A stretch of DNA of 53,847 nt from an uncultured Methanosarcinales archaeon (GTDB lineage Archaea; Nanobdellota; Nanobdellia; Woesearchaeales; ARS49): positions 12,793-66,639 of the forward strand of contig CAZXKS010000001.1 of the NCBI GenBank assembly GCA_964641265.1, given 5' to 3'. The position numbers and the translations under genes are program-made. The notes under the pieces are model-generated. The model saw nothing but the letters and a program-made list of their open reading frames with translations. It ran no database searches and had not been told where the DNA came from. Below are positions 1 through 53,847 of the stretch, piece after piece. Position 1 is the stretch's first letter. Each line of letters starts with the position of its first letter.

Positions 1-1583
1 TGCTGTACCACTCTGCTCAAATCACATGCTTGTGATATTAGTTTGCCGTCTTTGAATGCTGTGAATGGGTTGTCGCACCAGTTTCTTACTTGTGTGAATT
101 GTGGTGCTGTGTCTCCGCAGCATGTTAGCGTGTTTTTGGCTCCATTCAATTCGAATTCTTCGCTTGTGCAGCATGCTGCCGCGTATCTCATTTTTGGACT
201 TCCTCCGCCTTGTCCTGCCGGTGGTGCTTGCCGTTCTCTGACTTCTACTCTGCAGTCATCGGCGCTTGCTGGAATGTCTTGGTGCACGTCGTCGCTTACT
301 TCTAGTGCTGGTGGTGGGCCGTCGATTATTCCGAACGTGTACCCGCCTAGCGGTATTGATGGCGATGATAAAAACGTGATTTGGTATATGTTGAATGTTC
401 CGCTTCCTGCCAGGAATGGTTGTATGACTTTTGTGTGGACTGTTGTGATTAGTCCTGATGCTGGCGTGTATGCGTGGAGTAGTGAGCTGCCTGCTATTTG
501 GTTGGTTGGTGGTAGTGATGGGTCGAAGTTTGTGTCATCGAATGTGTCTTGTTCGAATACTCCTCCTATGTCTGGTGGCGAGCTTGGGTTGAACACTCTG
601 TATGTTACCGTGACTGGGTCTCCTTGGAATATTGTGCTTGGGCTTGCAATGCATGATTTGATAACTTCTTCTTCTTCATTGTTGCCTACTGTTATTTGTC
701 CGTCTTCGTTTTCAAGTGATTGGATGCTGAATGGTTGTGCGCCATCATCTGCTGTTGCTGTTTGGAAGTGTAGTGTGCTTGTTCCGATTTTTTTCGTGTA
801 ATAGTGGATTGTCGCAATATTTGCACCGCTTCCTTGTTCGCAGTCCGCGTTTTGTACGTTTAGTCCTGAAATTGTTACGCGTGTGTTTCCTGGTTGTATG
901 TTTGAGTTTCCGTTGCCTTGGTTTATGTCTACGCCTGTAACTTGAATGATGTTTTCATCATGGGTTATGGTTATGTCGATGTTTGCTGCGCTTCTTGTTT
1001 GTGTATTTGTTAAACAAACCGGAATGTCTACTGTTTCTTGTAAATATCCATACTTTTCTGGCAGGTAGAATCCTGTTTCTCCGCTTGGAGGCGGGGGTTG
1101 CTGTTGTTGTGCTTGTACTGTTATTGTTGCTCCGCTTATTGTTGTTCCTTGTATCGGATTGCCGTTTTGGTCGCTTGCTGATAGTTGTGATGTTGCCAAG
1201 TTGTAAGTTCCTGGTGGCGTGTTTGCTGGCACGTTGTATTCTAGTCTGAATAGTTGTCCGTTGGCTGGTGTTATTCCTTGCGTGTTGCCTCCAAAGACCG
1301 CGTATGGAGTGATTCTGTCTGCGTTGTTTTGTGTTACTCCGTTTAGGCTTCCTGTTAGTCGTGAGCTTGGTGTTCCTGAAACAAATGTTATTTGGCTTGT
1401 TGGATTTTCATCAACTTTTACTGAGAATGCCCAGAATGGTTGGTCGTTGTTGGCGTTTAAGTCGACATATACATCGTCTCCTGGGTTGACATTTTGTGCG
1501 CTTGGCGTTAGTGAGAAAGTTAGGGCAGCGCTTACGCTGGGTAATATCAGGGCCAGTGTTAGTAATAGTTTTATTGTTTTCAT
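1..1583 (-). CDS. Secreted protein with two tandem cohesin-like modules (start complete; 3' end runs off the window start)
   Basis: Absent from the ORF track. Hand translation of the minus strand from ATG at 1583 stays open to position 1 (about 527 codons): MKTIKLLLTLALILPSVSAALTFSLTPSAQNVNPGDDVYVDLNANNDQPFWAFSVKVDENP... Signal peptide. Two ~135-aa segments show a cohesin-like pattern (PGD.V.V.L, G.LF.LEY.V..PGTY.L, G.TITV; second copy ETVDIPVCL...ANIATIHYYTKKIGTSTLHF...DGQITV). ATGA overlap with the upstream gene at 1580-1583. Confidence 0.6.
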   Translation of the reverse strand, partial: MKTIKLLLTLALILPSVSAALTFSLTPSAQNVNPGDDVYVDLNANNDQPFWAFSVKVDENPTSQITFVSGTPSSRLTGSLNGVTQNNADRITPYAVFGGNTQGITPANGQLFRLEYNVPANTPPGTYNLATSQLSASDQNGNPIQGTTISGATITVQAQQQQPPPPSGETGFYLPEKYGYLQETVDIPVCLTNTQTRSAANIDITITHDENIIQVTGVDINQGNGNSNIQPGNTRVTISGLNVQNADCEQGSGANIATIHYYTKKIGTSTLHFQTATADDGAQPFSIQSLENEDGQITVGNNEEEEVIKSCIASPSTIFQGDPVTVTYRVFNPSSPPDIGGVFEQDTFDDTNFDPSLPPTNQIAGSSLLHAYTPASGLITTVHTKVIQPFLAGSGTFNIYQITFLSSPSIPLGGYTFGIIDGPPPALEVSDDVHQDIPASADDCRVEVRERQAPPAGQGGGSPKMRYAAACCTSEEFELNGAKNTLTCCGDTAPQFTQVRNWCDNPFTAFKDGKLISQACDLSRVVQ

Positions 1584-2632
1584 GGGTTGAAGCATATCGG
1601 GCTTGATACTGGTACTGTTCTGCTGTCAGTGTTTGCCAGTTCTGTTGTTTGTAGGAATGTCATATCTGCTGCGGTAAGGAAAGTGTCGTCGTTTGGATCT
1701 GTGTCTCCTACGCAGTTTGCTCCTGAGCCTGTGCATGCTGGATTCACACAGTTTACCAGCACGCTGAAGTCTCCATTAAAGTATTGTATCCAGTTGACAA
1801 TATCGTAAACATCGATTTCATTGTCTACAACTGGCGGGTTGTCGTATTCTAGCATGTCTGTTTCAAAGTCATCCGTGCCTGAGCCGCAGCCTGGGTCGTC
1901 TGGGAAGTCTATTAGTCCATCTCCGTCATTATCTATTCCGTCGCTGCATTCTGTGTCTCCTCTTAGAAATGTGACTGGCCCTCCGTTCGTCCATGTTATT
2001 GCGAACGCGTTTACCACATTTGTTTGTGGAATGTTTGTCTGCGGAATGCTTGCTGGCTGTTCAAAATCTTGCACAACGTATGCTGTTGGTTCTTGTCCTG
2101 CCCATTTTACCATTGAAAATATTCCTAAGATAAGTATCGCGAAGATGACTTTTGTTTTAACGCTGGTGCCTTCTAACACAATGAGCATTATTGATGCTGC
2201 GACTAAGATTAGTATTAGCACGAGTACGCCGCTTTCATCTCTTTCTTCTACTGTGTATGTTATTGCTCCTGTTGGGGTTGTTGGCCTGCTTACTATTTGT
2301 GGCGGTGGTGTTGGTAAAAAGTAGAATTCTGCTATTGGTGGTGGTATGTTTTTGTCTGGCGTGTTTACTCTTCTGAATGTTACTGCGCCTTTTATGCCTC
2401 TGTTAAATAGTTCTGGGTCTGTTGGTGGTGTGAAGCTTTGTGGCACTTCTACTCCATTTGCCCGTGTTCTTATTGTTATTTGTTCTATGTTTGCGTTTTC
2501 GTCATCTACGTCTACGTTTGGGAATGTTGTGAGCGTTTTTGTTCCCGAGTCTTTGCTTGTTATGCTGATTATTTCAGCGCTTGCGCTGCCTAGAATTATC
2601 AGAAAAACAAAAAAAGCAAGGACTGGCTTCAT
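1580..2632 (-). CDS. Membrane protein with a CSDGIDNDGDG Ca-loop module and a dockerin-like C-terminal duplicated segment
   Basis: 350-aa ORF with signal/anchor MKPVLAFFVFLIILGSASA and two internal hydrophobic helices. Motifs: CSDGIDNDGDGLIDFPDDPGC, then DNEIDVYDIVNWIQYF and DTDPNDDTFLTAADMTFLQ (D.N.D......D...L dockerin-like EF-hand pattern). AGGAGGGG Shine-Dalgarno site upstream of the ATG. Confidence 0.5.
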   Translation of the reverse strand: MKPVLAFFVFLIILGSASAEIISITSKDSGTKTLTTFPNVDVDDENANIEQITIRTRANGVEVPQSFTPPTDPELFNRGIKGAVTFRRVNTPDKNIPPPIAEFYFLPTPPPQIVSRPTTPTGAITYTVEERDESGVLVLILILVAASIMLIVLEGTSVKTKVIFAILILGIFSMVKWAGQEPTAYVVQDFEQPASIPQTNIPQTNVVNAFAITWTNGGPVTFLRGDTECSDGIDNDGDGLIDFPDDPGCGSGTDDFETDMLEYDNPPVVDNEIDVYDIVNWIQYFNGDFSVLVNCVNPACTGSGANCVGDTDPNDDTFLTAADMTFLQTTELANTDSRTVPVSSPICFNP

Positions 2633-2642
2633 TCAGCCCCTC

Positions 2643-53209: not shown

Positions 53210-53241
53210 GGTATGGCTTTAGATATTAGTGGTTTAAATAC

Positions 53242-53841
53242 CTACCTGGGGAATGCAATATTGATTATTGTTCTGTAAGTTGTGAAGTTGTTTAGCACGT
53301 ATGTTTCTACGAGCATTCCAACTGCTAGTACGCCTATCGCGATTAGTAGCAAGATGAAGTTGTATTTGGCTATGGTTTTCATGTTTTTTGACATGATTTT
53401 TTCTTTTACAATGCCGTCCGAGAATGTTGTGCCTGAGATTGTTGATAGCATGTAGCTTAGTCCTTCTAGGAACGTGTGTGGGAAAACGCTGAGTATTACC
53501 AACAGGAACACTATGAACACGTTTGCCGTGCTTGCTACTGCTGCTGTTTTTGCTAGGTTTCCGAATATTGTTCCCCATACGCTTGCATTCCATGCGATGA
53601 ACAATATTGCTCCATTGCCTGCTATTAGTGATAGGAGAAAGCACATTCCTAGTACTTGCATGTTCCAGCTGAACAAATCCCACCATAGGTACCAGCTGAA
53701 CGTGGCTGCTTGGCCTGTGACTATGTCTAGTTGTATTTTGAATAGGTGGCCTGCCGCTAGGCTGGGCAGTATCATTGAAAAGAATGCGAATGTGAAGAAT
53801 ATTCCAAAGAATACGGACACGTAGACTTTTGCGTGTGGCAT
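53242..53841 (-). CDS. SpoIIM-like (DUF95) integral membrane protein
   Basis: 199 aa with about 5 TM helices and FPHTFLEGLSYML (cf. the family P.G..E motif). Confidence 0.6.
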   Translation of the reverse strand: MPHAKVYVSVFFGIFFTFAFFSMILPSLAAGHLFKIQLDIVTGQAATFSWYLWWDLFSWNMQVLGMCFLLSLIAGNGAILFIAWNASVWGTIFGNLAKTAAVASTANVFIVFLLVILSVFPHTFLEGLSYMLSTISGTTFSDGIVKEKIMSKNMKTIAKYNFILLLIAIGVLAVGMLVETYVLNNFTTYRTIINIAFPR

Positions 53842-53847
53842 TGTTTC

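What the first reader, a model, noticed from the sequence alone, without database searches (positions are those of the whole stretch)
1..53847. Synonymous codon choice is dictated by gene orientation: extreme strand compositional skew without a sign change
Plus-strand genes (e.g. 8111..10444, 15995..17764) overwhelmingly use T- or G-ending codons: GCT, ATT, ACT, CCT, TCT, GGT, TGT, TTG, AAG, GAG, CAG. Minus-strand genes (e.g. 1..1583, 29167..29886, 50352..50843, 51297..52601) use the complementary set: GCA, ATA, ACA, CCA, TCA, GGA, TGC, CTA, AAA, GAA, CAA. The plus strand is therefore T>A and G>C at silent sites along essentially the whole 54 kb, whatever the coding direction. Mutational strand asymmetry strong enough to override translational codon preference is known from a few bacteria (Borrelia is the classic case). 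It is unusual for archaea and implies a single dominant replication direction through this region. It also provides a sensitive internal test for foreign DNA: the 43.4-46.6 kb cassette is clearly atypical, and 15133..15954, 28637..29170 and 50928..51266 look less biased to a smaller degree.
Basis: seen in the sequence. Interest (0 to 1): 0.6.

Follow-up and report, generated by a model that had tools for sequence, protein, structure and literature searches.

The report
Chromosome-wide T/A strand asymmetry in Woesearchaea
In this small-genome archaeon and many of its relatives, one DNA strand is T-rich apparently all the way round the chromosome and does not swap at the replication origin, so codon choice depends on gene direction and a second, one-way process seems to act on top of ordinary two-way replication.

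Summary
In the window, four-fold T-A skew is +0.55 in 28 plus genes and -0.63 in 21 minus genes (p=4e-9); 754 of 784 genes in the genome follow their contig's polarity. Correction: four-fold G-C skew does not differ (p=0.99); the effect is T versus A, about twice Borrelia's. The organism is Woesearchaeales-like. A canonical origin (inverted ORB pair upstream of cdc6) is present, yet T/A polarity keeps its sign across it here and in 10 of 10 strongly skewed relatives, around a single-contig 1.30 Mb relative (21 of 21 tiles) and around an end-joined 1.12 Mb relative (35 of 35). Only a weak G/C signal steps at origin and antipode. So ordinary bidirectional replication seems overlaid by a chromosome-wide Watson/Crick asymmetry. 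Best guess: a second, one-way process keeps the T-rich strand single-stranded and damaged; an ssDNA-like hairpin repeat sits on that strand in 18 of 19 genomes. No responsible gene was found, the window's own genome is unclosed, and weakly skewed relatives show two polarities.

The parts
1..53847 (+). T-rich strand throughout the window: A 12434, C 10005, G 13116, T 18292; (T-A)/(T+A)=0.19. A sample of a genome-wide property. By synteny the window lies on the arm upstream of the cdc6 origin, which is on contig C6, outside the window.
   Evidence: arm assignment 16 of 17 orthologs
3..4913 (-). Three A-strand-coded surface-protein-like genes with extreme A/C-ending codon use (four-fold T-A skew -0.81 to -0.88)
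8111..10444 (+). T-strand-coded subtilisin-like gene (label recalled, not tested), skew +0.75
15995..17764 (+). T-strand-coded ATP-dependent DNA ligase-like gene (label recalled), skew +0.59, typical codon profile (57th percentile)
48094..48834 (-). NucS endonuclease (above NCBIfam cut-off), A-strand-coded, skew -0.90 (99th percentile)
43427..46564 (.). Non-ameliorated cassette: Lrp-like regulator (-), methyltransferase, radical SAM protein, small ORF (+). GC3 0.21-0.29 in the three plus genes; strand signal nearly absent (percentiles 2.8-5.8)
50928..51266 (+). Small ORF without strand signal (2nd percentile); candidate recent acquisition; no NCBIfam match
30602..30883 (-). Small ORF with weak strand signal (3.9th percentile; only 33 four-fold sites)
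28637..29170 (+). GNAT acetyltransferase-like gene between tRNA-Gln and the next gene; mildly reduced signal (17th percentile)
15133..15954 (+).

Best explanation
SHOWN: two strand signals are superimposed. (1) A weak leading/lagging signal, mostly G vs C (0.07-0.13 at four-fold sites), steps at a canonical ORB-DUE-ORB origin upstream of cdc6 and near its antipode: ordinary bidirectional theta replication. (2) A far stronger T>>A asymmetry (0.66 here; 0.2-0.8 in many family members) belongs to one physical strand on both sides of the origin. It dictates synonymous codons and shifts amino-acid use (Val 8.2 vs 6.2%, Ile 6.4 vs 8.1%, Thr 4.7 vs 6.1%). INFERRED: signal 2 needs a process that always treats the same parental strand differently. 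Most likely it is a second, one-way mode of copying or moving the chromosome (strand-displacement, rolling-circle-like, or recombination-initiated synthesis from a fixed polar site) that leaves the T-rich strand single-stranded for long periods. On that strand C>T and A>G deamination plus purine loss or oxidation bypassed by inserting A (A>T, G>T) would drive neutral sites to about T 0.56, C 0.155, G 0.15, A 0.13. My confidence in the descriptive part is about 0.8; the figure below is for the whole mechanism.
For: No flip of T/A across the origin in G000 (chromosome-wide term 0.663+/-0.015, origin-flipping term -0.023, n.s.; G/C flipping term -0.076, z=-4.6; 291 genes placed by synteny) or in 10 of 10 strongly skewed relatives with both flanks measurable. 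G151, single contig 1.30 Mb whose two ends fall in what reads as one ORF: same sign in 21 of 21 measurable 20-kb tiles of 22; T/A -0.292 chromosome-wide vs +0.008 flipping; G/C flipping +0.130, z=8.7. G041: three large contigs pair end to end into a 1.12 Mb circle with the same sign in 35 of 35 measurable tiles of 36. Inside contig C2 alone G/C changes from +0.075 to -0.121 across the predicted antipode while T/A stays 0.323/0.327. G060 C1 (585 kb, spans origin): 9 of 9 measurable tiles of 10 negative. The ratio of flipping to chromosome-wide terms differs in size and sign between statistics, which one mixed process would not give. 8 of 8 exact contig joins in G000 and 7 of 7 in G019 keep the T strand in register. 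A hairpin repeat with Watson-Crick covariation (16 of 26 pairs), almost no wobble pairs and GNA-type loops lies on the T strand in 9 of 9 copies in G000 and in 18 of 19 strongly skewed loci, on both arms (G000 C4 and C41 vs G012, G047). On the T strand T/(T+C)=0.71-0.84 and G/(G+A)=0.62-0.69 at two-fold sites.
Against: No initiator, relaxase or polar site was found: Y1 transposase 0 of 15 genomes of the genus; Rep_1 0 of 36 but without a positive control; the replisome looks canonical. No monotonic gradient of skew, which long strand-displacement would predict. G000 is unclosed (57 contigs, 88.8%). G041 joins are imperfect: one inside tandem paralogs, one through a dispersed repeat, one 84-90% identical; the G/C fit does not tell the circle from a C2-flipped version (residuals 568 vs 561). 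G019 could not be closed. Weakly skewed relatives show two polarities (G026; G057) or none (G061, G018; G171 93/94 word counts). G/C change-points are only roughly at the origin (G151 best 540/163 kb vs 763/113; G041 240/739-779 vs 182/742). The origin axis ranks 1/56 and 2/66 for G/C in G041 and G151, but 6/49 and 8/46 in G026 and G077, and 31/56 and 16/66 for the A/G statistic. The G/C flipping sign is opposite in G000, G014, G077 vs G041, G151, G026. Intergenic skew is only 0.09-0.16. Standard errors treat neighbouring genes as independent. The mutation spectrum is inferred from equilibrium frequencies, not observed (uninformative). G041's own polarised repeat lies on the A strand.
Confidence: 0.55

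Rival explanations
1. One dominant fork: the cdc6 origin fires almost only in one direction (one helicase active, or a polar block beside the origin), so leading/lagging asymmetry covers the whole circle. The G/C step is left by a minority of bidirectional rounds or by history.
For: Single polarity around G151 and G041. The distal ORB has a variant core in all 7 genus-g1 genomes examined and in G019 and has lost its G-string in G060, G066, G067, G072, G076. In G014 all four statistics are stronger on one arm. It needs no new gene.
Against: One process predicts the same flipping/constant ratio for every statistic; instead G/C reverses sign between arms in G041 (-0.13 vs +0.04) and G000 while T/A barely moves, and in G151 G/C changes several-fold with T/A flat. 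Both ORBs look intact in strongly skewed G001, G041, G047, and polarity relative to cdc6 differs between genera.
Confidence: 0.2
2. Non-random sister segregation: in an asymmetrically dividing ectosymbiont one physical strand is kept as the old template more often, ages, and fixes damage (A inserted opposite abasic sites), independent of fork direction and without long ssDNA.
For: Predicts exactly a constant Watson/Crick term plus an untouched bidirectional term and no gradient, and needs no Rep protein.
Against: Repair genes for duplex damage are present (UDG, HhH-GPD, EndoV, weak Nfo-like match). It does not explain the polarised hairpin repeat unless that is the segregation mark. At population level the effect cancels unless the two products differ in descendants (own reasoning). 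Nothing tested here bears on division mode.
Confidence: 0.1
3. Ordinary Borrelia-type bidirectional skew; the two switch points hide in assembly gaps or the real origin lies elsewhere.
For: G000 has 56 or more gaps, 8 bridged; G019 remains in 4 blocks; G026 and G057 show two polarities.
Against: Contigs span the only clear ORB pair with no T/A flip in 10 of 10 relatives and in G000. G151 is one contig with one sign (21 of 21). Even with C2 flipped, G041 has an 804 of 1125 kb single-polarity tract, and its flips would then fall at neither origin nor G/C terminus.
Confidence: 0.07
4. Artefact of gene calling, or selection on codons or transcription rather than mutation.
For: Intergenic skew is weaker (0.09-0.16); S13/S4/S11 on the T strand are less skewed (0.33 vs 0.65, 229 sites).
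Against: The result holds with hand-curated genes and with calls that ignore synonymous positions. Genes split evenly (399 of 785 on the T strand), and the coding-strand term is near zero (-0.019). Weaker intergenic than four-fold skew is the rule in bacteria (PMC2099444, section 13).
Confidence: 0.02

Closest known systems
Strand-specific codon usage of Borrelia, Ehrlichia, Chlamydia, Lawsonia, Blochmannia
   Same: Gene orientation, not expression, sets synonymous codons; amino-acid use shifts; small host-dependent genome.
   Different: There the skew is leading vs lagging and flips at the origin. Here T/A does not flip at the ORB-flanked origin, four-fold G/C is nearly flat, and genes are evenly split. 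Size: 0.63 at D4 sites against RT 0.300 for B. burgdorferi and a top overall skew of 0.446 among 352 bacterial chromosomes (PMC2099444 Table 6; equivalence of my statistic to RT inferred from its text, Equation 9 not seen).
Mitochondrial whole-molecule strand asymmetry (vertebrate H/L strands, recalled; Galdieria-type mitogenomes, PMC7487498 passages)
   Same: One physical strand is biased around the whole circle; attributed to one-way or strand-asynchronous replication.
   Different: Here it is a ~1 Mb cellular chromosome with a canonical archaeal origin and replisome, T-dominated rather than G-dominated, with genes on both strands, no clear gradient, and a residual bidirectional signal.
Bacterial genomes with a 'rolling circle' cumulative GC skew (10.1101/808410, section 16)
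   Same: Single polarity along a complete chromosome.
   Different: Mentioned for bacteria and for GC skew only; the list is in Table S7, which I could not see. For archaea the paper reports bidirectional patterns in 18 of 224 genomes.
Ca. Forterrea (DPANN) and Pyrococcus-type archaeal oriC (PMC5905446 passages; PMC6742236 passages)
   Same: cdc6-linked origin with opposed ORBs around an AT-rich element; G/C signal stepping there.
   Different: In Forterrea the skew follows the usual origin-to-terminus pattern; no constant T/A term is described in the passages read.
Largest reported whole-chromosome parity violations (PMC2780954, section 13)
   Same: A differs from T on one strand of a whole chromosome.
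   Different: Maximum there is 0.047 (X. fastidiosa 9a5c, of 112 bacteria). Here sampled tiles give 0.091 (G151) and 0.086 (G041), and 0.212 for G000 if all contigs are co-oriented, which is assumed, not shown.

Membership tests
Borrelia-type replichore codon bias | Two codon usages split by gene orientation | tested here: met
   754 of 784 genes; 0 of 18 shared top codons
Borrelia-type replichore codon bias | Dominant skew reverses at the origin and terminus | tested here: not met
   T/A keeps its sign across oriC in G000 and 10 of 10 strong relatives, and across the G/C terminus inside G041 C2
Borrelia-type replichore codon bias | G>C at four-fold sites on the T-rich strand | tested here: not met
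   p=0.99; G/(G+C) 0.448 vs 0.450. Present in relative G014 (0.21), reversed in G151
Borrelia-type replichore codon bias | Excess of genes on the G+T-rich (leading) strand | tested here: not met
   399 of 785; main ribosomal-protein block is on the A strand
Canonical archaeal bidirectional oriC | Opposed ORBs flanking an AT-rich element next to cdc6 | tested here: met
   G000 C6:24582-24601(-) and 24701-24720(+); pair seen in 30 of 41 upstream regions (28 by pattern, G000, G019 by eye); 6 truncated, 5 with one box only
Canonical archaeal bidirectional oriC | Skew component that steps at oriC and its antipode | tested here: met
   four-fold G/C, |z| 4.3-8.7 in G000, G014, G041, G151, G077; 2.6 in G026; not seen in G060 (z -1.0, 60 genes); change-points only approximate
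Canonical archaeal bidirectional oriC | Origin activity shown physically | not testable with these tools
   needs marker-frequency or nascent-strand data
Mitochondrial-type strand-displacement asymmetry | One strand biased around the whole molecule | tested here: met
   G151 21 of 21 tiles; G041 35 of 35 with inferred joins; G000 itself unclosed
Mitochondrial-type strand-displacement asymmetry | Gradient of skew with time spent single-stranded | tested here: not met
   no monotonic trend in G041, G151, G014 C19 tiles
Rolling-circle replicon | HUH Rep/relaxase and a nick site | tested here: inconclusive
   Rep_1 0 of 36 with no positive control; Y1 0 of 15 in the genus; crude motif screen empty; other HUH families not searched
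IS200/IS605 or REP-type ssDNA element (the hairpin repeat) | Cognate Y1 transposase and lagging-template orientation that flips with the replichore | tested here: not met
   no Y1 in the genus; repeat follows the T strand on both arms; no Rfam match

The most novel reading that the evidence does not exclude
Many Woesearchaeales treat the two strands of their chromosome as permanently different molecules: beside ordinary bidirectional replication from a conserved oriC, an undescribed one-way process (whole-chromosome single-strand displacement or transfer, or polar recombination-started replication, marked by oriented ssDNA hairpins) acts on one strand around the entire circle. This gives the strongest strand-dependent codon usage and the largest breach of intra-strand A=T parity that I could find described for a cellular chromosome.
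Probability: 0.5. Interest if true: 0.92.

Novelty: new variant of a known kind. Interest (0 to 1): 0.8.

Why it matters
Strand skew is read everywhere as a map of replication forks, and intra-strand A=T parity is treated as near-universal for cellular chromosomes. A widespread DPANN lineage whose main skew ignores its own origin points to an unknown mode of chromosome copying, transfer or inheritance in ectosymbiotic archaea. It is testable at once on existing complete genomes (the 208 ORC1-rotated Nanobdellota genomes of 10.64898/2026.05.13.725050, whose main text has no occurrence of 'skew'). Practical uses: it orients contigs in MAGs (15 of 15 exact joins agree), flags recent imports and inversions gene by gene, and warns that codon models, tetranucleotide binning and protein phylogenies of Woesearchaeales carry an orientation-dependent bias.

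Tried and rejected
Loss of a repair gene as cause: UDG is present in strongly skewed G000, G012, G019 and absent in strongly skewed G014, G041 and weak G018, G026, G045 (27 of 53); HhH-GPD 50 of 53; EndoV 50 of 53; Nfo-like matches 46 of 53, all below the curated cut-off. None tracks skew strength by inspection; no formal test was run. PolB catalytic and exonuclease motifs are intact in G000 and alike in strong and weak genomes (rows G018 and G022 were a wrong ORF and a fragment and were ignored). My first reading, simple unidirectional firing, was demoted. Degenerate distal ORB as the switch: not consistent across genera. Y1 transposase orientation as a marker of the lagging template: too few skewed loci. 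Read-based mutation spectrum: one search was uninformative, because same-strain contigs were identical and differences came from other organisms. Closing G019: 7 joins, 4 blocks remain. Word counts over 133 genomes cannot be read for multi-contig assemblies. The word search gave no hits in G041 C4 beyond 100 kb, so that stretch rests on tiles. The codon-model gene calls assume contig polarity; all polarity counts use the amino-acid-only calls, with C54 (GC 0.68) left out. In one search, 30 loci were fetched, 4 from unpublished genomes and 7 weak or short ones were dropped, leaving 19. Literature: ten searches found nothing on Woesearchaeales skew or on a non-flipping skew in an archaeal chromosome; the library lacks most subscription papers. 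Supplements were closed: Tables S7-S8 of 10.1101/808410 and the additional files of PMC2099444 may bear on novelty and ranking. Unpublished genomes (G002, G050, G068-G071, G075, G132, G191) enter only the tools' own tallies; no conclusion rests on them.

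
Full report
Identity. The window is contig C1:12793-66639 of an 854 kb, 57-contig genome, 88.8% complete. Its FtsZ is 87% identical to that of Ca. Woesearchaeota RIFCSPLOWO2_12_FULL_46_25, and most of the 80 best loci are labelled Woesearchaeota, Nanoarchaeota or Nanoarchaeia (the top hit, 91%, carries a 'Methanosarcinales' label that I take to be an error). 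The eight runs holding at least half of the sampled words are sediment metagenomes from two studies, one of which may be the source.

Observation. For 49 hand-curated genes, four-fold T-A skew is +0.55 on the plus strand (28 genes) and -0.63 on the minus strand (21 genes), p=4e-9, with the sign right in 48 of 49. Four-fold G-C skew does not differ (p=0.99). With gene calls blind to synonymous positions, 754 of 784 genes match their contig's polarity, 399 of 785 lie on the T-rich strand, no amino acid of 18 shares its top codon between strands, and four-fold sites read T 0.557, C 0.163, A 0.142, G 0.138 in T-strand genes and the mirror image in A-strand genes. The main ribosomal-protein block is as skewed as its neighbours (-0.70); S13, S4 and S11 on the T strand are less so (0.33 vs 0.65; 229 sites). 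Intergenic skew is weaker, 0.09-0.16, as is usual in bacteria (PMC2099444, section 13). At strict four-fold sites the half-difference is 0.63, against RT 0.300 for B. burgdorferi and a top overall skew of 0.446 among 352 bacterial chromosomes in that paper's Table 6 (sections 13, 15, 19 and parts 1 and 3 of section 17 read; Equation 9 not seen). The 43.4-46.6 kb cassette and 50928-51266 are atypical; 15133-15954 is not.

Distribution. Only 4 of 57 measurable FtsZ loci from the wider order reach 0.4, but 12 of 20 family genomes sampled around cdc6 reach 0.38-0.81, including all 6 of the same genus; G018, G028, G045 and G061 are near zero. It is a lineage trait of variable strength.

No reversal. 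No contig of this genome shows a sustained reversal, and 8 of 8 exact end overlaps keep the T strand in register; so do 7 of 7 in G019, which stays in 4 blocks. G014 C19 (same genus, 337 kb) has one sign in 8 of 8 tiles. G151 (same order, one contig, 1.30 Mb) has one sign in 21 of 21 measurable tiles of 22, and its ends read as two parts of one small ORF (by eye). The three large contigs of G041 pair into a 1.12 Mb circle by an exact 83-base overlap, a 99% repeat copy and two halves of one large gene; one sign holds in 35 of 35 measurable tiles of 36, with a weak zone at 460-580 kb. These joins are imperfect and not confirmed by reads. G060 C1 (585 kb) has one sign in 9 of 9 measurable pieces of 10. 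Against generality: weakly skewed G026 and G057 show two polarities, and G077 is mostly flat.

The origin. Upstream of cdc6 lies a textbook archaeal origin: two opposed ORB boxes around an AT-rich stretch, at C6:24582-24720 here and in 30 of 41 upstream regions examined (6 truncated, 5 with one box). Opposed ORBs are thought to load two MCM rings symmetrically (PMC6742236, passages). The replisome is ordinary: Cdc6, PolD, PolB with intact motifs, one MCM, a 446-residue primase ORF. Yet T/A skew has the same sign on both sides of this origin in 10 of 10 strongly skewed relatives with both flanks, the other 2 of the 12 lacking a left flank.

Two signals. A per-gene model with coding, chromosome-wide and origin-flipping terms gives, for four-fold T/A and G/C: G041 (540 genes) -0.378/+0.035 and -0.036/+0.081 (z=6.3); G151 (364) -0.292/+0.008 and +0.186/+0.130 (z=8.7); G014 C19 (164) -0.661/-0.066 and -0.206/-0.083; G026 (372) -0.053/+0.056 and -0.018/+0.026; G077 (234) +0.070/-0.007 and -0.008/-0.068. 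For this genome, 291 genes assigned to arms by synteny with G014 give +0.663/-0.023 (n.s.) and -0.035/-0.076 (z=-4.6); the window is on the upstream arm. Within G041 C2 alone, needing no join, G/C goes from +0.075 to -0.121 across the predicted antipode while T/A stays at 0.32-0.33. A single process with a biased fork direction would scale all statistics together; here the ratios differ in size and sign. Caveats: errors ignore non-independence of neighbouring genes; free change-points are only roughly at the origin; the origin axis ranks 1/56 and 2/66 for G/C in G041 and G151 but less well in G026 and G077 and for the A/G statistic; the G/C sign on the leading strand differs between genomes; G060 shows no G/C step. 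Polarity is conserved within the genus (103 of 105 orthologs) but reversed relative to the origin region in G041 (136 of 207 opposite; 1 of 59 the same within 120-300 kb), so whatever sets it is separable from oriC and is re-established over genus-level time (the last step is inference).

How it most likely works. Steps shown: bidirectional-type origin, weak flipping signal, strong non-flipping signal. Steps inferred: a second, one-way process exposes the T-rich strand. On that strand T outnumbers C and G outnumbers A at two-fold sites (0.71-0.84; 0.62-0.69), as deamination of single-stranded DNA would give, and the four-fold excess of T over everything needs purine-to-T changes, as insertion of A opposite abasic or oxidised sites would give (own knowledge). 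Independent support is a 130-base intergenic repeat: 9 of 9 copies here share one orientation on the T strand; it occurs in 31 of 77 family genomes (4 of the 31 unpublished) and lies on the local T strand in 18 of 19 strongly skewed loci, on both arms, whereas five divergent copies in weakly skewed G026 point both ways. Its stems covary at 16 of 26 pairs with almost no wobble pairs and close GNA-type loops (the alignment was selected by a pattern that fixes one stem), which suggests a DNA rather than RNA fold. It has no Rfam match and no Y1 transposase in the genus. ssDNA elements of the IS200/IS605 family follow the lagging-strand template (PMC5027513, passages); this one follows the chromosome-wide polarity instead. 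Against: no Rep or relaxase found, no gradient, strong genomes without the pattern (G011, G019, G033, G041, G066, G073), and the different polarised repeat of G041 is on the A strand. I put 0.55 on this mechanism, 0.2 on one dominant fork from oriC, 0.1 on non-random strand segregation, 0.07 on hidden switch points and 0.02 on artefact or selection.

Comparison and novelty. It works like Borrelia-type codon splitting but fails that family's defining reversal at the origin. It resembles mitochondrial whole-molecule asymmetry (PMC7487498, passages) but lacks a gradient and keeps a bidirectional signal. Single-polarity GC skew has been noted for some bacterial genomes (10.1101/808410, section 16; table not seen). 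Whole-strand A-T imbalance in sampled tiles is 0.086-0.091 in G041 and G151, and 0.212 here if contigs are co-oriented, against a maximum of 0.047 in a survey of 112 bacteria (PMC2780954, section 13). Ten searches found no report for Woesearchaeales; the 208-genome Nanobdellota preprint does not use the word skew in its main text (passages); the DPANN Ca. Forterrea has the usual pattern (PMC5905446, passages). PMC6042203 was read in passages only; other listed papers were seen as listings. Verdict: real, larger and stranger than first described; a new variant of strand asymmetry that may reveal an unknown mode of chromosome handling. Interest 0.8.

Noticed in passing
G000 C6:24582-24720 (outside the window); about 30 relatives: Canonical oriC upstream of cdc6-DP1-DP2, with a short conserved oriented AT-rich motif between the ORBs and a variant distal ORB core in genus g1 and G019. 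Several genomes have a further ORB 10-12 kb downstream.
   Followed up: partly
G000 C3, C4, C15 (two), C16, C20, C21, C41, C51; L232-L261: 130-base structured intergenic repeat, strand-polarised, no Rfam match, in 31 of 77 family genomes. None in the window.
   Followed up: partly
G041 C1 213-580 kb and C2 227-316 kb: A different repeat made of ~40-base hairpin units; 15 of 15 matches on the A-rich strand and all within one replichore of the searched part.
   Followed up: partly
G041 C1 460-580 kb: Zone of weak skew (-0.14) whose orthologs are mostly in the opposite orientation class from the rest of the chromosome; possibly an inversion still re-equilibrating.
   Followed up: partly
G000 C4:22068-23711 (-): 547-residue gene with fully opposite polarity (+0.71 on the A strand): candidate very recent inversion or import.
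   Followed up: no
G000 C8:11572-15296: Three adjacent low-GC3 genes with weakly opposite polarity; likely an import.
   Followed up: no
G000 C54: 3.7 kb contig with GC 0.68 and no skew; probably a contaminant.
   Followed up: no
window 48857-49918 (-): Kinase-like plus deaminase fusion resembling the anti-phage dCTP deaminase model (130.8 bits, far below the cut-off of 400) and ComEB.
   Followed up: no
window 12201-13706 (+): Hel308-like helicase ORF of 501 residues that seems to lack its N-terminal part (label and judgement recalled, not tested).
   Followed up: no
window 10441-11607 and 47495-48097 (-): PlsX-like and acyltransferase-like ORFs, bacterial-type lipid genes in an archaeon (labels recalled, not tested).
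   Followed up: no
window 43427-44395 (-): The cassette's Lrp-like regulator has a 66% identical relative in G014 (L226), though its codon signal is weak.
   Followed up: partly
G000 tRNA set: Only 20 tRNAs found, including a Val tRNA with anticodon AAC, unusual for archaea by my recall.
   Followed up: no
PolB, L274-L303: The proline of the recalled uracil-binding pocket is replaced in most family members, strong and weak alike.
   Followed up: partly
L001, L005, L046 and others: Many records titled 'uncultured Methanosarcinales' carry Woesearchaeota-like FtsZ; L001 and L046 share the strong skew.
   Followed up: no
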